Source of the DNA: Candidatus Scotarchaeum otlingeri
GTDB taxonomy: Archaea > Thermoproteota > Nitrososphaeria > Geothermarchaeales > JDFR-13
DNA: 24,000 nucleotides
Reading direction: 5' to 3'
Assembly (NCBI GenBank): GCA_002011075.2
Contig: MTMA02000006.1
Location: forward strand, 831,261-855,260
Position numbers and translations under genes: made by a program. The notes below the pieces were generated by a model. That model made no database searches, had not been told where the DNA came from, and saw only the letters and a program-made list of their open reading frames with translations. Positions 18,679 through 24,000 of the stretch are shown piece after piece (within the stretch, counting starts at the first letter, position 1; every line of letters starts with the position of its first letter).

Positions 18679-19455
18679 TCATAGATAATATATGTCTCTC
18701 CTTCTCTCATCTAATAAAGGCAGCAGTTTCCTCATTTCCACAATCTCAGATAGATCAATTTCCACAGCTAACAGTTTTTCCCCTTCACCCGCTTCGATTA
18801 ATATGTTGCCTTTAGGAGAGGCAACTAAAGAGTTACCGCAAAAATGGTATTTATCTGTTCCGACACGATTACATGCAACCATATACACCTGATTTTCTAT
18901 AGCCCGTGCAAGAATCAGAGACCGCCAATGATGTATCCTCTTACACGGCCATTCTGCACATATAAATATTATCTCTGCTCCTTTTAGGGCTAGGGTTCTA
19001 GCGAACTCTGGGAACCTTAGATCGTAACATATCATCATACCTATTTTATAGCCATTTACATTATAGACTTCTACTGAATTCCCAGCCTCAAAAATCTTAT
19101 GTTCGCCCATTAGTTTAATCAGATGTGTTTTATGATAAAATCCAATTAAGCCGTCTGGACCTATTAGATGCATAGAATTATATAGTTTATCTCCCTCCTT
19201 GAGGGGTACTGAACCCATTATATAAATATTGTTCTCTTTTGCTTTTAGAGTAAGTTGAGTGAATAATTCACTATCTCTATTCTCTGCTAAGTCATAGATA
19301 TTATCGGCATATGCTGTCGTCCATAGTTCAGGTAGAAGAATAAATTCAGCTCCCTGAGAAGCCAATTTATCGATAGAGTTAAATGCCTTCCTAATATTAG
19401 TATCCTTATCCCCTATGGAGATATCTAGCTGGGCTATACCTACATGTACCTTCAT
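18679..19455 (-). CDS. Carbon-nitrogen hydrolase (nitrilase superfamily; omega-amidase/MtnU/YafV-like)
   Basis: 258 aa. The Glu-Lys-Cys triad is in LPELWTT, YHKTHL and MMICYDLRFPE. CAEWP...HW..L..ARAIENQ is typical of the Nit/omega-amidase branch. It resembles B. subtilis MtnU as I recall it. The start overlaps the upstream stop (ATGA). Confidence 0.85.
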   Translation of the reverse strand: MKVHVGIAQLDISIGDKDTNIRKAFNSIDKLASQGAEFILLPELWTTAYADNIYDLAENRDSELFTQLTLKAKENNIYIMGSVPLKEGDKLYNSMHLIGPDGLIGFYHKTHLIKLMGEHKIFEAGNSVEVYNVNGYKIGMMICYDLRFPEFARTLALKGAEIIFICAEWPCKRIHHWRSLILARAIENQVYMVACNRVGTDKYHFCGNSLVASPKGNILIEAGEGEKLLAVEIDLSEIVEMRKLLPLLDERRRDIYYL

Positions 19456-20117
19456 AGGAAATTCACCATATATCTATGTGTAATCTTCCTATTGAGAATC
19501 GGGTCCTCCATCTCTATTATAAATTCCCTAGTGTAACATAGATCTCGCTTCAATGGAATCGTCCCGGAGAAGAGAGCTACACCCTTTCTATTCAAATCAA
19601 ATATTTCAAGGAGCCTTTCAGGGTGAATAATCATCTCGAGGAATCCCTCTTGATATAGCTCTAGCCTATTGTTCATAACTACATAGGAACGTATAATCAG
19701 TTTATCCCAATGCTCTCTCAATTCGTTATATCGCCATACAGTCGGCGCAATTATTTTAGGACATAGCTGTTTTGAGCGTTGAATATCGCTTTTCTCGAGC
19801 CATCTATCTGTATGGTCGCTACCGACAGTTACGTATATATCGTCACCTATTAAAAGGACATACTCAACTTCACCCGATGTCTTATCGCCAATTACTTCGA
19901 TTTTATCCCCTGTAGTCAGGAGATAGGGTGATACCCTCATAATTATAGGGGTGGATTTAGGGGCTGGTACACCTAATTTCTGGAGCTCTAATATATGCAT
20001 CCGAACTAATTCTCGGTTCCTACCTGTATAGCCAGCTAAATATAACTCTTCAATATCAACTAGCTCATCCACTAATTCTCCATCTGCTTCTACTATTTCG
20101 ACCTTGATTTTAACCAT
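19452..20117 (-). CDS. Conserved protein of unknown function, DUF2848-like
   Basis: 221 aa. AGYTGRN..V..HI.EL..LGVP.P, TSGEVEYVLL, VGSDHTDR, SKQLCPK and HWD fit my memory of the DUF2848 consensus. No catalytic assignment is possible from sequence alone. Confidence 0.4.
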   Translation of the reverse strand: MVKIKVEIVEADGELVDELVDIEELYLAGYTGRNRELVRMHILELQKLGVPAPKSTPIIMRVSPYLLTTGDKIEVIGDKTSGEVEYVLLIGDDIYVTVGSDHTDRWLEKSDIQRSKQLCPKIIAPTVWRYNELREHWDKLIIRSYVVMNNRLELYQEGFLEMIIHPERLLEIFDLNRKGVALFSGTIPLKRDLCYTREFIIEMEDPILNRKITHRYMVNFL

Positions 20118-20142: not shown

Positions 20143-21465
20143 TTAGTCTAGCATTGTAGCAAGCGGACCTTTCTTCCACGCCTCTATAGCAGCCTTAAGT
20201 TCAGGATGATCTTCTGCGTATTCTTCTAGTGGTATTTTTTTCATAGTGGCTTCGATAGCTTGTCTAAAGGATTTGGCTCCGGCTCTTGGACCCATGGGAT
20301 GTGCATGTATAGCTCCGCCAACACCGATCGCTACATGTATCCCGAAATCCTTGACTAATTTAGGCACCATCAATTGCGTTATGCCTCCAGCCGGCATCGG
20401 TAAAGTCGGTAGAATATGTTGCATTGGAAATAATAGCGTCCTTCCTACCTTCAGATACTTATCTTTGATATAGAATGGCTGCTTGCCATAAGGAGCAGGA
20501 TATACCATGATATCGGCTCCAGCCAACCTCGGTAGTTTACCCATAATAATCTCTGATGATACTCCTGTCTCTGGGTCCTCATATATTGCCCCCGCGAAGT
20601 CCATATGTGCAAGTATAGGTACATTGATACTGGGATCCTCGGCCAGCCCCTTAAGTGTTCCTATACCAGCAGTCAAATAATTAACCATCAATGCATTAGC
20701 ACCTAGCTCTATCACCCTATCAGCCAATTCAAATATCCTCGGTGGGTCCGCAGTAATGTTTATCGTATACATCTTCTTCTCCCCTGTCTCCTCCTCCGCT
20801 TTATCCACGACCTCCATATACTTGACGATTCTGTCTTCAACTTTATTGAACGGGGCATCGGCAAGAAGCTCATCGTCTTTCACAAAATCGACTCCTCCCA
20901 CCAAGGCTTCATAAGCCAGTCGTGCGCCGATATCAGGCGGGAAACCCGTGCAGGGCTTAATCATATTGTTTAGGATTGGTCTGTCCGTTACCTTAAGGTT
21001 ATATCTTATCCCAGGAACACCGAACTTAGGTCCCTTAAATAATTTTATGAATGACTTTGGGAAAGAAACATCTATTAACTTGACTCTCCCTGCAAGAGAG
21101 ATATTACCTACTATTGTAGATAACATCATGGAAATTTCATTCATAAAATTCTCGTATGGAAAAGCGATGGAGATGAGATATCGCCTTAAATTAATCTCCT
21201 CAGGAACCTCATACTCATAGTCTGGCACTTCATTTATCCTAATTACTTTAGCCACGTGACGTCTCCTCAACTCAGGGGTCTCCCCGGGAACCTTTGTCCA
21301 TGTACCTGTAGATTGCTCTATAGCAATCAACATAGATACCTTGTCAACCTCCCAATTCCTAGGCAAAGCGGTATAATATGTAGCTATAATATATCGTTCA
21401 GGGTCGATACCTTCTGGAAGCGCTATGGGAAGCGATTCGACATCGACATCATCCATATTATGCAC
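20143..21465 (-). CDS. RuBisCO large-subunit-like protein, form IV (RLP), not a carboxylase
   Basis: 440 aa. The RuBisCO fold motifs STGTW, VGN, FVKDDE, GGxxxHAHP and GxRAGAxxxRQA are present. KPKxG is KPCTG, HRAMH is HMDFA, HVGT is MVYP and SGG is AGG. The overall pattern is close to YkrW/MtnW-type RLPs (GLAEDPSINVPILAH, GADIMVYPAPYG). The track start is GTG 21465. ATG 21456, preceded by GGGGTG, is an equally good start. Confidence 0.88.
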   Translation of the reverse strand: MHNMDDVDVESLPIALPEGIDPERYIIATYYTALPRNWEVDKVSMLIAIEQSTGTWTKVPGETPELRRRHVAKVIRINEVPDYEYEVPEEINLRRYLISIAFPYENFMNEISMMLSTIVGNISLAGRVKLIDVSFPKSFIKLFKGPKFGVPGIRYNLKVTDRPILNNMIKPCTGFPPDIGARLAYEALVGGVDFVKDDELLADAPFNKVEDRIVKYMEVVDKAEEETGEKKMYTINITADPPRIFELADRVIELGANALMVNYLTAGIGTLKGLAEDPSINVPILAHMDFAGAIYEDPETGVSSEIIMGKLPRLAGADIMVYPAPYGKQPFYIKDKYLKVGRTLLFPMQHILPTLPMPAGGITQLMVPKLVKDFGIHVAIGVGGAIHAHPMGPRAGAKSFRQAIEATMKKIPLEEYAEDHPELKAAIEAWKKGPLATMLD

Positions 21466-21519: not shown

Positions 21520-23028
21520 CTAGCCATTTAACGCTGCATATGCATCAGCGAGATAATCATGCATCTCTTTATAGACTTCATATAATTCTCCATATACCTC
21601 CTCATACTCCTCATTGGGATGATAATGATATTGATACCTTATATTCTGCACAGCTTCTGCCAACGAATGATACTTACCGGCTCCAACCATAGCCATCAGT
21701 GCAGCTCCTTCTGCTACAGATTCTACAATGTCTCTCACAACCCTTATCTCCTTCTGTAACACATCAGTTATAACCTCTGAAACTGTTCTTGACCTAAGAA
21801 ATCCTCCTGAAGCAGGGAAATAATCATGGGATACACCTGTATTCTCCTCCACCAGCTCACTGATCCATCTCAGGTTGAAACCGATACCTTCAACAAGTGC
21901 CCTAGCCACATCACTAATTTTATGGTCTAGACTTAGATTGAAGAAGCATCCCCTTGCATATATATCTGGTATGGGCGCTCTCTCGCCGTACATCCATGGA
22001 AGAAATATAACCTTATTTGCTCCAGGAGAACTTGCCTTAATCAAACCATCCATATAACTATATGGATCCCGTTCCTTAGAGATACCCGATATAAAGGTAT
22101 CGATAAACCATTTATACGCCGCGCCTGCGCTCTCCATCTCGCCTATAAATATCCATAAATTGGGTTCCGTGAATAATATTGTACCCATACCATGTTCAGC
22201 ATCTAGCATCCGCTCTTCAACTATAGTGGATATCCATGCTGAGGAACCTATATATAGATGAGTATCTCCAGGTGAAACAGCGCCTGTACCTATTGATGCA
22301 GCTATAACATCCCCAGATCCGTTGACGACTATAGTATCCTCATCTAGACCCAGTTCATTAGCAGCATCACTGGACAAATGACCTACTACATCTAATGCAC
22401 CCTTGAATTCAGGATATTTCTCTATATCCAAATTGAATATCTCAGCTATTCTATCGGAATATTTGAGATTATTCATATCAAAAGTTCCCCTTACAGATGC
22501 ACATGCATAATCTGTGACCACTTCACCCGTCATTTTATAGATTATGTAGTCTTTAACATCCATTATGTACTCTGCATCATCATATATATCAGGCTTATTA
22601 TTCTTAAGCCATAGAATTTTGGGTAAAGCATCTTTTCCACCTGGTACTCCACCTACATGGTCAAGAAGCTCGTCGACACCAAATTCTCCTAGTATCTCAT
22701 CGGCCTCTTCTTCCGCTCGGTTATCAAGCCAAATGATACATCTAGTTAAAGGACTTCCCTCTTTAGAGAGAGGAAGAACCCCTATCATCTGGGCACTTAT
22801 ACTGAGAGCTTCAACTTTGATGCCGGTTTTATCAGCCTTTGTTATCAATTTATTTATGACGTCTTTAATTCCAAGCCACCAATCATCTGGATCTTGCTCA
22901 GCCCACCCCTTTTCCGGATAGAATGTTCTCAATGAACTTGATGCAGTAGATATCAATTCTAGGTTTTCATCGACAAGGACCCCTTTTATCGCACCGGTAC
23001 CAAGATCTAAACCAATATAATAACTCAT
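21520..23028 (-). CDS. FGGY-family carbohydrate kinase (xylulokinase/ribulokinase-like; substrate unknown)
   Basis: 502 aa. N-terminal YIGLDLGTGAIKGVLVD. Also has GSGDVIAASIGTGAV...IGSSAWIS and a C-terminal ASGGFLRSRTVSEVITDVLQKEI. Its ATG lies 8 nt after the upstream stop. Confidence 0.85.
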   Translation of the reverse strand: MSYYIGLDLGTGAIKGVLVDENLELISTASSSLRTFYPEKGWAEQDPDDWWLGIKDVINKLITKADKTGIKVEALSISAQMIGVLPLSKEGSPLTRCIIWLDNRAEEEADEILGEFGVDELLDHVGGVPGGKDALPKILWLKNNKPDIYDDAEYIMDVKDYIIYKMTGEVVTDYACASVRGTFDMNNLKYSDRIAEIFNLDIEKYPEFKGALDVVGHLSSDAANELGLDEDTIVVNGSGDVIAASIGTGAVSPGDTHLYIGSSAWISTIVEERMLDAEHGMGTILFTEPNLWIFIGEMESAGAAYKWFIDTFISGISKERDPYSYMDGLIKASSPGANKVIFLPWMYGERAPIPDIYARGCFFNLSLDHKISDVARALVEGIGFNLRWISELVEENTGVSHDYFPASGGFLRSRTVSEVITDVLQKEIRVVRDIVESVAEGAALMAMVGAGKYHSLAEAVQNIRYQYHYHPNEEYEEVYGELYEVYKEMHDYLADAYAALNG

Positions 23029-23036
23029 AATCCCAT

Positions 23037-24000
23037 CTACCTCCTCCTATATTCATACTCATATTCGATACTTACTTCAATAATAGATTCCTCCAAAATA
23101 TGCAGAGCCCTATCTATCTCCTCATAACTTATCGTTAAGGGAGGTTTGAACTTGATAGTATTCATAAAAGAAAACTCATCCCCATATACATCAGGCATAT
23201 CAAGAGCAAATATCGCACCTTTCTCCAGGGCTCTATCTACAATTTCAGAAGCCAATTCAGGAGAAGGCGTCTTATCATCCTTATCCTCAACTATATCGAT
23301 ACCAATAAATAGGCCGGGACCTCTTACATCCCCAATTATCTCAGATCTCTCCATTATCTCTCTAAGTCTTCTAGTTGCATATAATCCCTTATCCCTAGCC
23401 TCTTTAATTAGATCAAGCTTCTCAATAACCATTATATTTACTAATGCTGCCGCATAAATTACTGGGTTACCCCCGAAAGTAGTATGTTCCTCTGGATATG
23501 TTAAGCCCTTAATATCTTCTCTAGCCAGAGTTGCGCCGATTGGATAACCGCCTCCTAATCCCTTTGTGAATGTCATCATATCAGGTGTAACGTTATATAG
23601 TTCGGCGGCACACCATGCACCTACCCTTCCGAATGCGGTTTGTGACTCATCGAATATAAGATAGATATCGTATTTGTCTGTCAATTCTCTCAGAGCTTTT
23701 AGATATTCTATGGGTGCAGGTATATGTCCACCGGGTCCCTGTATGGGTTCAATAATTAGCCCTGCGTATTTTCCCCAGCCGCCCCTCTTTATCGTATTCT
23801 CTAACACATCAATACATCTAAGGCTACATTCAGGGTAGGAGAGACCAAAGGGACATCTATAACAATATGGATAGGGGAATCTAACGAATCTGTCAATACC
23901 GAATGGTTTATACCTTATTAATGTCGTCAATGGGTGACTTGCACTTGTAGTGGCTAAACTATTTCCATGATATCCTCTCCATGCCGTCAGAAATATCTCT
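23037..24000 (-). CDS. Class-III (omega) PLP aminotransferase (GabT/ArgD-like); the N-terminus lies beyond the window end
   Basis: The reading frame stays open upstream of the track's TTG. My translation of 23931-23999 gives ..EIFLTAWRGYHGNSLATTSASHP, the GYHG region of class-III enzymes. It also has IIEPIQGPGG, FDESQTAFGRVG and the PLP-lysine motif TFTKGLGGGYP. Confidence 0.85.
   Translation of the reverse strand, partial: EIFLTAWRGYHGNSLATTSASHPLTTLIRYKPFGIDRFVRFPYPYCYRCPFGLSYPECSLRCIDVLENTIKRGGWGKYAGLIIEPIQGPGGHIPAPIEYLKALRELTDKYDIYLIFDESQTAFGRVGAWCAAELYNVTPDMMTFTKGLGGGYPIGATLAREDIKGLTYPEEHTTFGGNPVIYAAALVNIMVIEKLDLIKEARDKGLYATRRLREIMERSEIIGDVRGPGLFIGIDIVEDKDDKTPSPELASEIVDRALEKGAIFALDMPDVYGDEFSFMNTIKFKPPLTISYEEIDRALHILEESIIEVSIEYEYEYRRR

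What the first reader, a model, noticed from the sequence alone, without database searches (positions are those of the whole stretch)
20143..21465. RLP active-site pattern is a hybrid: RuBisCO-like Asn and carbamylation motif kept, phosphate and enediolate ligands replaced, MtnW catalytic Lys absent
Numbering follows the track translation, which happens to run within ~5 of spinach numbering. N121 (RuBisCO N123), K170 (K175), K196-D197-D198-E199 (K201/D203/E204; nt 20869-20880 read aaa gac gat gag on the minus strand), H287 (H294), K328 (K334) and G360/G361/G383/G384 are retained. K177 becomes C172, R295 becomes M288, H298 becomes A291, H327 becomes V/Y, and S379 becomes A359. Loss of R295, H298, H327 and S379 excludes RuBP carboxylation. 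In Geobacillus/Bacillus MtnW the position equivalent to N123 is, as I recall, the catalytic Lys (VFGKLSL). Here it is VGNISL, so a canonical DK-MTP-1-P enolase mechanism is also unlikely. A metal-binding, probably carbamylated-Lys, enolising active site with a different substrate is expected.
Basis: partly seen in the sequence, partly recalled or inferred. Interest (0 to 1): 0.6.

Follow-up and report, generated by a model that had tools for sequence, protein, structure and literature searches.

The report
Kinase-linked RuBisCO-like protein active site
This archaeal gene encodes a RuBisCO relative that keeps the metal, enolisation and first-phosphate half of the RuBisCO pocket but has greasy residues where the second phosphate would bind; it belongs to a large, biochemically unstudied clade that almost always sits beside a sugar kinase and an amine-handling enzyme, and it is not the methionine-salvage enzyme databases call it.

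Summary
An alignment anchored on a verified spinach RbcL sequence, the genome's own form III RuBisCO and four solved RLPs reproduces every assignment.

The pattern is not peculiar to this protein. It is the near-invariant signature of a discrete clade, seen in 78 GTDB species from both archaea and bacteria. All 14 residues of the Mg/carbamate, enolisation and P1-phosphate half are kept. The distal P2 half is apolar (M168, C172, M288, A291, V321). A359 is a local variant; most members keep Ser379.

The catalytic Lys98 of MtnW is Asn in all members. NCBIfam MtnW models score below cut-off. MtnB, MtnC, MtnD and MtnK were not found in this 88%-complete genome.

In 40 of 46 loci with full flanks, the gene lies next to an FGGY kinase plus either a class-III aminotransferase or a saccharopine-dehydrogenase-like enzyme, never both. 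DUF2848 and the Nit amidase occur only in this window.

Most likely the enzyme uses the carbamate and Mg to enolise a monophosphorylated ketose made by the kinase. The substrate is unknown. I found no publication on this clade.

The scan has found the same module before on other DNA (e1-917157, e1-1527700, e1-958699, e1-1443565, e1-5243704).

The parts
20143..21465 (-). RuBisCO-like protein (form IV). It is 440 aa from the GTG; the likely true start is the ATG at 21454-21456 (437 aa).
   Evidence: Pfam RuBisCO_large 1.6e-52 and RuBisCO_large_N 1.8e-12. ORF. Start-site evidence.
21298..21318 (-). E50-Q-S-T-G-T55-W56, equivalent to RuBisCO E60/T65/W66. These are the N-domain partner of loop 6 and the P1-phosphate site. 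All retained.
   Evidence: Alignments. Invariant in 78 clade members. MtnW has Gly at E60.
21103..21105 (-). N121 codon (AAT). It corresponds to RuBisCO N123 and to the catalytic K98 of G. kaustophilus MtnW.
   Evidence: HMMER pairwise alignment, MSA, codon.
20944..20970 (-). Invariant block N166-N-M168-I-K170-P-C172-T-G174. K170 = K175, C172 = K177, M168 = T173.
   Evidence: Nine consecutive invariant columns in 78 clade members. Mapping.
20869..20880 (-). K196-D-D198-E199 (AAA GAC GAT GAG): the carbamylation Lys and the two Mg ligands (K201/D203/E204).
20593..20607 (-). H287-M288-D289-F-A291. H294 is kept; R295 becomes M and H298 becomes A. D289 is a clade-invariant acidic residue absent from RuBisCO and MtnW.
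   Evidence: The AF2 model has pLDDT below 50 at residues 290-294.
20482..20511 (-). Loop-6 region I319-M-V321-Y-P-A-P-Y-G-K328. H325 becomes I, H327 becomes V, and K334 is kept as K328.
   Evidence: MtnW has Ser and IV-Photo RLPs have Arg at K334.
20383..20391 (-). A359-G360-G361 (S379/G380/G381). The Ala is local to this lineage.
   Evidence: Ser in 73, Gly in 4 and Ala in 2 of the 79 proteins aligned.
20299..20319 (-). G383-G384-A-I-H387-A-H389 (G403/G404 of the P1 site). The IHxHP motif is shared with MtnW.
21520..23028 (-). FGGY-family sugar kinase, the conserved partner. It is XylB/GntK-like but below cut-offs.
   Evidence: Pfam. NCBIfam XylB 332 against a cut-off of 380. Closest solved structures are gluconate kinase 3gbt and XylB 2itm. 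Adjacent to the RLP in 43 of 46 full-flank loci. Falls inside the cassette FGGY clade on a long branch.
23037..24000 (-). Class-III (omega) aminotransferase-fold PLP enzyme. It is cut by the window end; full length is 465 aa, ending at genome position C6:855695.
   Evidence: Pfam. 48-56% identical to the aminotransferases of other cassettes. Alternates with a Sacchrp_dh-like enzyme.
19452..20117 (-). DUF2848 protein (related to the FAH family). It lies 25 nt downstream of the RLP and is not part of the conserved cassette.
   Evidence: Pfam 6.9e-61. Absent from all 80 other loci. Some homologues co-hit PF01557 FAA_hydrolase.
18679..19455 (-). Nit/CN-hydrolase amidase whose start overlaps the DUF2848 stop (ATGA). 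Not part of the conserved cassette.
   Evidence: Pfam 7.7e-58. The best NCBIfam hit, amidohydrolase PRK10438, is below cut-off. Absent from all 80 other loci.

Best explanation
The protein is a member of a discrete, uncharacterised clade of form IV RuBisCO-like proteins. I am about 0.9 confident of that much.

Proposed mechanism (inferred). An FGGY kinase phosphorylates a free keto-sugar or sugar-like compound. That compound is made, or afterwards consumed, by an omega-aminotransferase or by an NAD(P)-dependent amine dehydrogenase of the saccharopine-dehydrogenase family.

The monophosphate binds with its phosphate in the intact RuBisCO P1 site (T55, W56, G360/G361, G383/G384). Its carbonyl and hydroxyl sit on Mg2+, which is held by carbamylated K196, D198 and E199. 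Its uncharged tail lies in an apolar pocket (M168, C172, M288, A291, I319, V321) that replaces the P2 phosphate site.

As in RuBisCO, and unlike in MtnW, the base is the K196 carbamate, helped by K170 and H287. MtnW instead uses a Lys at the N123 position. The result is an enediolate under a closed loop 6 (K328 paired with E50, plus N121). Reprotonation then gives an isomer: a C3 epimer or a keto-shifted product.

In some genomes a class II aldolase and an aldehyde:ferredoxin oxidoreductase could process that product.

The DUF2848 and Nit genes are an add-on specific to this genome.
For: Shown by the data:
- All 14 residues of the proximal half (E60, T65, W66, N123, K175, K201, D203, E204, H294, K334, G380, G381, G403, G404) are retained and invariant in 78 clade members. 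The distal residues are apolar and also invariant (P = 4e-10).
- The clade is discrete. Scores drop from 511 bits or more to 389 bits or less among the 50%-identity representatives. It is monophyletic in a FastTree tree (no support values examined) and lies in an Asn-retaining grade between form III RuBisCO and the Lys98-type MtnW clade.
- Among 46 loci with full flanks, 43 have the FGGY kinase, 23 an aminotransferase and 18 a Sacchrp_dh-like enzyme. None has both, and 40 have the kinase plus one of the two.
- Aminotransferase and Sacchrp_dh partners are interspersed on the FGGY tree, which suggests they are functionally equivalent.
- The cultured Tepidanaerobacter acetatoxydans has FGGY-RLP-aminotransferase-TetR.
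- An MFS transporter is divergent from the operon here and occurs in 12 other loci. A class II aldolase is present in 12 loci, and AFOR in 7.
- The Sacchrp_dh-like partner is distantly related to carboxyspermidine dehydrogenase 8deb and to PH1688/3abi. From my own knowledge, PH1688 is an L-lysine 6-dehydrogenase, that is, an amine dehydrogenase.
- The AF2 model has the RuBisCO large-subunit fold, with pTM 0.85.

Inferred: the roles of individual residues, by analogy with established RuBisCO enzymology (own knowledge).
Against: - There are no biochemical data for any clade member, and I found no paper.
- The substrate, the carbon that the kinase phosphorylates, and the direction of the amine step are all unknown.
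- A simple isomerase does not obviously need E60, N123 and K334. RuBisCO uses these for the CO2 addition step.
- The aminotransferase-fold partner's closest solved relatives include racemases and epimerases, so it may not be a transaminase.
- The window's FGGY kinase is only 33-39% identical to the other cassette kinases.
- Six of the 46 full-flank loci lack the full module, including Theionarchaea loci with neither partner.
- The model gives no coordinates, so the pocket lining rests on homology alone.
Confidence: 0.45

Rival explanations
1. Carboxylase or decarboxylase acting on a monophosphate. After RuBisCO-type enolisation, the enediolate would be carboxylated and cleaved, for example giving 3-phosphoglycerate plus a short acid. 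Alternatively, the reverse half-reaction would decarboxylate a beta-keto acid phosphate, as the apiose-pathway RLPs OiaC and OiaX do.
For: From established RuBisCO enzymology (own knowledge), catalysis rather than P2 binding uses K175, carbamyl-K201, D203, E204, H294, K334, N123 and E60. Every one of these is retained and invariant. K334 is Ser in MtnW and Arg in IV-Photo RLPs, so keeping it is unusual among the solved RLPs. The kinase's closest solved relative is a gluconate kinase, which allows a sugar-acid substrate. Class-III aminotransferases can make beta-keto acids from beta-amino acids (own knowledge).
Against: K177 is Cys, and T173, H327 and H298 are lost. The OiaX model scores 200 against a cut-off of 700. 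No gene in the cassette points to CO2 metabolism. The carriers already have a form III RuBisCO. There is no precedent for a monophosphate carboxylase in this superfamily.
Confidence: 0.12
2. 5-Methylthio- or 5-deoxy-ribulose-1-phosphate isomerase, like the Rhodospirillum rubrum RLP of the MTA-isoprenoid shunt. The enzyme would perform a 1,3-proton transfer on MTRu-1-P made by MtnP and MtnA.
For: The apolar distal pocket resembles the methylthio pocket of MtnW-type enzymes. This genome has MTAP (285 against a cut-off of 275) and MtnA (404 against 279). The R. rubrum reaction is described in PMC6302742.
Against: MtnP and MtnA already deliver the 1-phosphate, so the near-universal FGGY kinase and amine enzyme would have no role. 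MtnA here sits next to a class II aldolase far from the window, which is the layout of a DHAP shunt needing no RLP. No orthologue was found in 30 relatives, several of which have RuBisCO homologues. No methylsulfurylase-type cupin is in the cassette.
Confidence: 0.1
3. A true MtnW orthologue, that is, a DK-MTP-1-P enolase that uses another base in place of Lys98, as the automatic JGI annotation says.
For: The best sequence matches in the PDB are MtnW proteins (2zvi and 2oek, E about 1e-75). Backbone motifs are shared (PxPYG, IHxHP, AH-x). JGI names many homologues this way. The Nit amidase and aminotransferase in the window recall B. subtilis mtnU and mtnV (own knowledge).
Against: Lys98 is Asn in 79 of 79 aligned proteins. 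Both MtnW equivalog models are below cut-off. Identity to MtnW (35-36%) is no higher than to IV-Photo RLPs (35%) or to the genome's own form III RuBisCO (34%). MtnB, MtnC, MtnD and MtnK were not found in the 88%-complete genome. The Nit amidase is absent from all 80 other loci.
Confidence: 0.04
4. A non-catalytic or regulatory RLP, such as a stress-response role like that proposed for Chlorobium tepidum RLP.
For: The function of IV-Photo RLPs is still undefined. Foldseek ranks 1tel, 1ykw and 2qyg first.
Against: The full metal, carbamate and acid-base set is strictly invariant, and nine consecutive active-site residues are conserved across archaea and bacteria. The gene is tightly operon-linked to two enzymes. 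The IV-Photo signature (E at 123, N at 177, R at 334, R at 404) is not shared.
Confidence: 0.03

Closest known systems
MtnW / YkrW, the 2,3-diketo-5-methylthiopentyl-1-phosphate enolase (G. kaustophilus 2OEK, B. subtilis 2ZVI)
   Same: It is the best sequence match among solved proteins (E about 1e-75, 35-36% identity). Shared features are K175, the KDDE motif, H294, the PxPYG loop 6 backbone, the IHxHP motif, and loss of the P2 ligands to apolar residues.
   Different: The catalytic Lys98 is Asn here. E60 is kept (Gly in MtnW), K334 is kept (Ser in MtnW) and G380 is kept (Ala in MtnW). Cys replaces Met/Val at position 177. NCBIfam MtnW scores are below cut-off. The gene context is kinase plus amine enzyme, not methionine-salvage genes.
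Form III RuBisCO (T. kodakarensis 3A12, P. horikoshii 2CWX, and this genome's own copy at C6:1274685-1275977)
   Same: The Mg, carbamate, enolisation, loop-6 and P1 half is identical: E60, T65, W66, N123, K175, K201, D203, E204, H294, K334, G380/381 and G403/404. Fold similarity is TM about 0.83-0.85.
   Different: T173, K177, R295, H298 and H327 are replaced by M, C, M, A and V, so RuBP cannot be held. TIGR03326 scores 278 against a cut-off of 497. Identity is 34%.
IV-Photo RLPs (Chlorobium tepidum 1TEL/1YKW; Rhodopseudomonas palustris RLP2 2QYG)
   Same: These are the top Foldseek matches (TM 0.83-0.86). E60, K175, KDDE and H294 are kept, and the distal replacements are apolar.
   Different: Position 123 is Glu in IV-Photo and Asn here. 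The other differences, written IV-Photo versus here, are: 177 Asn vs Cys, 334 Arg vs Lys, 65 Gln vs Thr, 381 Ser vs Gly, 404 Arg vs Gly. The two also fall in separate clades of the tree.
Rhodospirillum rubrum RLP (IV-DeepYkr), the 5-methylthio-D-ribulose-1-phosphate 1,3-isomerase
   Same: It shows that an RLP can isomerise a monophospho-ketose with an apolar tail through an enediolate (PMC6302742). This is the closest mechanistic precedent for what I propose.
   Different: Its substrate comes from MtnP and MtnA, not from an FGGY kinase.
OiaC / OiaX, the 3-oxo-isoapionate-4-phosphate decarboxylase and transcarboxylase/hydrolase of D-apiose catabolism
   Same: They are RLPs that act on the product of a dedicated sugar-acid kinase within a catabolic operon (PMC6302742).
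   Different: Their kinase is, as I recall, of the DUF1537 family, not FGGY. NF042437 OiaX scores 200 against a cut-off of 700.

Membership tests
RuBisCO large-subunit superfamily | N-terminal alpha/beta domain plus C-terminal TIM-barrel domain (PF02788 and PF00016) | tested here: met
   PF00016 scores 179 bits (cut-off 30.1) and PF02788 scores 48 bits (cut-off 20.7). The AF2 model has pTM 0.85, and Foldseek gives TM 0.82-0.86 to RLPs and RuBisCOs.
RuBisCO superfamily, catalytically competent core | Carbamylatable Lys201 with Mg ligands Asp203 and Glu204, plus Lys175 and His294 | tested here: met
   K196, D198, E199, K170 and H287 are present, and they are invariant in 78 clade members. Carbamylation itself cannot be shown from sequence.
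Bona fide RuBisCO (forms I-III) | All RuBP-binding residues present, including the P2 ligands R295, H298 and H327, plus K177 and T173 | tested here: not met
   These positions are M288, A291, V321, C172 and M168. TIGR03326 scores 278 against 497, and PRK04208 scores 270 against 438.
Form IV (RuBisCO-like proteins) | Superfamily member that lacks residues essential for RuBP carboxylation | tested here: met
   Five of the 20 canonical sites are replaced throughout the clade. In the tree it groups with RLP lineages, outside the clade carrying the full RuBisCO signature.
MtnW / YkrW DK-MTP-1-P enolase | Catalytic Lys at the N123 position (G. kaustophilus K98) | tested here: not met
   N121 aligns with K98 and K112 in both the pairwise HMMER alignment and the MSA. 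The position is Asn in 79 of 79 aligned proteins, and no Lys lies within 4 residues. The role of K98 is from my recollection of Imker et al. 2007, which is not held in the library.
MtnW / YkrW DK-MTP-1-P enolase | Score above the curated equivalog cut-off | tested here: not met
   NF007095 scores 358.2 against 409. TIGR03332 scores 305.2 against 513.6.
MtnW / YkrW DK-MTP-1-P enolase | Pathway context: MtnB supplies the substrate, and MtnX and MtnD consume the product | tested here: not met
   The best MtnB hit is 54 bits against 137. No ARD, MtnC or MtnK hit was found in the 88%-complete genome. MtnX was not searched. The conserved neighbours are an FGGY kinase plus an aminotransferase or Sacchrp_dh-like enzyme.
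IV-Photo RLP (C. tepidum type) | Signature of Glu at 123, Asn at 177, Phe at 295, Arg at 334, Ser at 381 and Arg at 404, as read from 1TEL and 2QYG | tested here: not met
   The window has N, C, M, K, G and G at those sites. It also falls in a separate clade.
OiaX / OiaC apiose-pathway RLPs | Score above the NF042437 cut-off | tested here: not met
   The score is 199.6 against a cut-off of 700.
IV-DeepYkr (R. rubrum MTRu-1-P isomerase) | Orthology to the R. rubrum RLP and turnover of MTRu-1-P | not testable with these tools
   No R. rubrum RLP sequence or model was available. A Lys123/Cys177 group next to MtnW in the tree may be this clade, but it is unlabelled.
FGGY-linked RLP clade (unnamed; this scan's recurring module) | Signature E-T-W-N-M-K-C-K-D-E-H-M-x-V-K-x-G-G-G-G, with an adjacent FGGY kinase and either an aminotransferase or a Sacchrp_dh-like enzyme | tested here: met
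   The window signature is ETWNMKCKDEHMAVKAGGGG. The FGGY kinase and aminotransferase lie directly upstream. The window's FGGY falls inside the cassette FGGY clade.

The most novel reading that the evidence does not exclude
The clade keeps every RuBisCO residue used for catalysis, including the CO2-addition trio E60, N123 and K334, and has lost only the second-phosphate site. It could therefore be a carboxylase, or the reverse-acting decarboxylase, that works on a monophosphorylated ketose or keto-acid supplied by the FGGY kinase. That would be a RuBisCO-type C-C bond reaction on a new substrate, widespread in anaerobic archaea and bacteria.
Probability: 0.1. Interest if true: 0.9.

Novelty: new variant of a known kind. 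Interest (0 to 1): 0.55.

Why it matters
Only a few RLP clades have a known reaction: MtnW, the R. rubrum isomerase and the apiose enzymes.

This clade is large. It has thousands of database sequences and is present in at least 80 GTDB species, among them Bathyarchaeia, Hodarchaeota, Baldrarchaeota, Hadarchaeales, Theionarchaea, Chloroflexota, Actinomycetota and Bacillota. It is routinely mis-annotated as a methionine-salvage enolase or as RuBisCO, which distorts the metabolic reconstructions of these uncultured anaerobes.

Its active site resembles RuBisCO more closely than that of any RLP with a solved structure. It sits between form III RuBisCO and the MtnW lineage in the tree. It therefore bears on how carboxylase and enolase/isomerase chemistries diverged.

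The conserved three-gene module, together with a cultured carrier (Tepidanaerobacter acetatoxydans), makes the function directly testable.

Tried and rejected
- **Literature.** Ten full-text searches combined RLP with DUF2848, FGGY, saccharopine dehydrogenase, the clade names, K98, gene-cluster terms and T. acetatoxydans. None found a paper on this clade or module. The key primary papers are not held: Tabita 2007, Imker 2008, Warlick 2012, and Erb and Zarzycki 2018. The K98 mechanism is therefore cited from memory.
- **DUF2848 and Nit as part of the RLP pathway.** Rejected as a general feature. Both are absent from all 80 other loci. DUF2848 homologues elsewhere have unrelated neighbours and no Nit. 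DUF2848 has no solved relative by sequence.
- **Fold search as a way to choose between RLP types.** Uninformative. IV-Photo RLPs, MtnW and form III RuBisCO all score TM 0.82-0.86. The model tool returns no coordinates, so pocket geometry and the position of C172 could not be measured.
- **Window FGGY as a non-orthologous replacement.** Rejected. Despite only 33-39% identity, it falls inside the cassette FGGY clade relative to two outgroup FGGYs.
- **Vertical inheritance.** Rejected. None of the 30 relatives in the same family, order or class has an orthologue; the best match is 42% identity.
- **R. rubrum RLP.** It could not be aligned, because no sequence was reachable.
Full report
**What is there**

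Window 20143-21465 (-) is a 440-aa ORF read from a GTG. It carries both RuBisCO large-subunit Pfam domains: PF00016 at 1.6e-52 and PF02788 at 1.8e-12.

The true start is probably the ATG at 21454-21456. GGGGTG lies just upstream. A near-identical database protein (P0002, 437 aa) begins MDDVDV, and homologues are about 437 aa.

**Testing the residue assignments**

I rebuilt four reference sequences from printed HMMER alignments:
- G. kaustophilus MtnW (2OEK) and B. subtilis MtnW (2ZVI),
- C. tepidum RLP (1TEL) and R. palustris RLP2 (2QYG),

The rebuilt G. kaustophilus sequence places its lysines at 98, 147 and 173, matching the published numbering as I recall it.

I also took the genome's own second homologue, which has all canonical RuBisCO residues and is a form III enzyme.

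MAFFT alignments give the following. "Ct" is the C. tepidum RLP.

| Spinach | Window | Note |
|---|---|---|
| E60 | E50 | |
| T65 | T55 | |
| W66 | W56 | |
| N123 | N121 | MtnW K98/K112; Ct E119 |
| T173 | M168 | |
| K175 | K170 | |
| K177 | C172 | |
| K201 | K196 | |
| D203 | D198 | |
| E204 | E199 | |
| H294 | H287 | |
| R295 | M288 | |
| H298 | A291 | |
| H327 | V321 | |
| K334 | K328 | MtnW Ser; Ct Arg |
| S379 | A359 | |
| G380/381 | G360/361 | |
| G403/404 | G383/384 | |

No Lys lies near N121 that could stand in for the MtnW base.

**A clade signature, not a one-off**

Homologues number in the thousands. A scan of one genome per GTDB species returned 80 loci at 55-77% identity. They come from Bathyarchaeia, Hodarchaeota, Baldrarchaeota, Hadarchaeales, Theionarchaea, Chloroflexota, Actinomycetota, Tissierellales and the cultured Tepidanaerobacter acetatoxydans.

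In 78 clade members, 18 of the 20 canonical sites are invariant, against 101 of 440 columns overall (P = 4e-10). Invariant features include the nine-residue block NNMIKPCTG, the triplet H-M-D and the loop-6 Lys. Only positions 291 (A/S) and 359 vary.

Against 1.8 billion 50%-identity representatives, the clade is represented by two sequences at 511 bits or more. The next representative scores 389 bits.

In a FastTree tree the clade is monophyletic (no support values examined). It lies in an Asn123-retaining grade between the full-signature RuBisCOs and the nested Lys123 (MtnW-type) clade. Cys at position 177 recurs in 34 of 99 representative RLPs, so it is a common RLP feature.

The window protein is almost equidistant from every reference:
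- MtnW: 35-36% identity
- IV-Photo RLPs: 35%
- the genome's own form III RuBisCO: 34%

Foldseek on an AF2 model (pLDDT 83.5, pTM 0.85) gives TM 0.82-0.86 to all three groups, with at most 35% identity. No structure from this clade has been solved.

**Reading the pocket**

The residues that RuBisCO uses for metal binding, carbamylation, enolisation, loop-6 closure and the P1 phosphate are all kept (14 of 14).

The residues around the P2 phosphate become Met, Cys, Met, Ala, Ile and Val.

This fits a substrate with one phosphate, a carbonyl and hydroxyl bound to Mg, and an uncharged tail. Residue roles are inferred from established RuBisCO enzymology.

**Not MtnW**

- The base Lys is absent throughout the clade.
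- Both MtnW equivalog models are below cut-off (358 against 409; 305 against 514).
- The genome, 88% complete, has MTAP and MtnA.
- The only MtnB-like gene is a class II aldolase next to MtnA, scoring 54 bits against a cut-off of 137. That layout suggests a DHAP shunt.
- ARD, MtnC and MtnK were not found.

**Gene context**

Unbiased clustering of neighbouring genes gives these counts for the 46 loci with full flanks:

| Neighbour | Loci |
|---|---|
| FGGY kinase | 43 |
| Class-III aminotransferase-fold enzyme | 23 |
| Saccharopine-dehydrogenase-family enzyme | 18 |
| Both amine enzymes together | 0 |
| Kinase plus one amine enzyme | 40 |

The kinase usually lies directly upstream on the same strand. 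The two amine-enzyme types are interspersed on the FGGY tree, which argues that one has displaced the other repeatedly.

The Sacchrp_dh-like enzyme is distantly related to carboxyspermidine dehydrogenase and to PH1688. From memory, PH1688 is an L-lysine 6-dehydrogenase. So both partner types could interconvert an amine and a carbonyl.

The aminotransferase's closest solved relatives are archaeal class-III racemases, BioA and GABA aminotransferases at about 30% identity. Its reaction type is therefore open.

The kinase is XylB/GntK-like but below cut-offs.

Occasional extras are an MFS transporter (12 loci, and divergent from the operon here), a class II aldolase (12 loci), AFOR (7 loci) and TetR.

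**What is special in this window**

The operon is aminotransferase - FGGY - RLP - DUF2848 - Nit amidase.

DUF2848 and Nit are absent from all 80 other loci. DUF2848 is related to the FAH family, since some homologues co-hit PF01557. Elsewhere it has unrelated neighbours.

None of the 30 relatives in the same family, order or class has an orthologue of this RLP; the best match is 42% identity. The nearest sequences are from Bathyarchaeia and Hodarchaeota at 72-83%. The cassette was therefore probably acquired horizontally.

**Mechanism and rivals**

My best explanation has a confidence of 0.45 for the specific chemistry and about 0.9 for 'uncharacterised kinase-coupled RLP clade, neither MtnW nor an RuBP carboxylase'. 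It is carbamate/Mg-dependent enolisation of the kinase's monophosphate product, followed by reprotonation to an isomer.

| Rival | Confidence |
|---|---|
| Carboxylation or decarboxylation on a monophosphate, raised by the retained E60/N123/K334 | 0.12 |
| R. rubrum-type MTRu-1-P isomerase | 0.10 |
| True MtnW | 0.04 |
| Non-catalytic role | 0.03 |

**Novelty**

I found no paper on the clade or the module (ten searches).

Earlier follow-ups in this scan reached the same reading on other genomes. I saw those notes only after my own neighbourhood analysis.

This report adds five things:
- a residue-by-residue test against six references
- the 'proximal half kept, distal half apolar' description, with clade statistics
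- the phylogenetic position of the clade
- the methionine-salvage gene inventory
- evidence that DUF2848/Nit and the S379A change are local to this lineage

Noticed in passing
window 21454-21465: The annotated GTG start is probably wrong. GGGGTG overlaps it and looks like a ribosome-binding site for the ATG at 21454-21456. The near-identical database protein P0002 starts MDDVDV (437 aa).
   Followed up: partly
L012 4050-6846 (Hodarchaeota MAG JBHLKK010000013.1): Right next to the Sacchrp_dh-FGGY-RLP cassette lies a second, divergently oriented pair. It is a distinct FGGY kinase (493 aa) overlapping by about 20 nt a 444-aa RuBisCO homologue that keeps K177, R295, H298 and H327, i.e. a carboxylase-type signature. 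A sugar kinase coupled to a bona fide RuBisCO-type protein is unusual.
   Followed up: partly
genome C6:80135-81715 (L090, L092): MtnA (404 bits, above cut-off) sits next to a class II aldolase that is below the MtnB cut-off. With MTAP at C6:1374914 and no MtnB, MtnC, MtnD or MtnK found, this looks like a DHAP shunt for MTA and 5'-deoxyadenosine disposal.
   Followed up: partly
window 19452-20117: DUF2848 appears related to the fumarylacetoacetate-hydrolase family: three homologues carry a precomputed PF01557 hit. It has no solved relative by sequence and no literature. In two archaeal contigs its neighbour is a Cupin_7 protein, not a Nit amidase.
   Followed up: partly
window 21520-23028: The window's FGGY kinase sits on a long branch. 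It is 33-39% identical to the other cassette kinases, which share a median of 43% with each other. The RLP beside it is 72-77% identical to its nearest GTDB relatives. The kinase may have shifted its specificity along with the DUF2848/Nit add-on.
   Followed up: partly
genome C6:855817-857010 (L089 2817-4010 +): An MFS transporter is transcribed divergently from the aminotransferase-FGGY-RLP operon. MFS genes also accompany the cassette in 12 Bathyarchaeia-type loci. This hints at uptake of the pathway's substrate.
   Followed up: no
window 20599-20601 (D289): An Asp directly after H287-M288 is invariant in the clade but is Ala in RuBisCO, MtnW and the genome's own form III enzyme. The following loop (290-294) is the least confident part of the AF2 model. 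It is a candidate new catalytic or substrate-binding residue.
   Followed up: no
L028 6936-13668 (Tepidanaerobacter acetatoxydans MAG): A cultured species carries FGGY-RLP-aminotransferase-TetR, with a divergent Cof-type HAD phosphatase upstream. This is the most tractable organism for experiments.
   Followed up: partly
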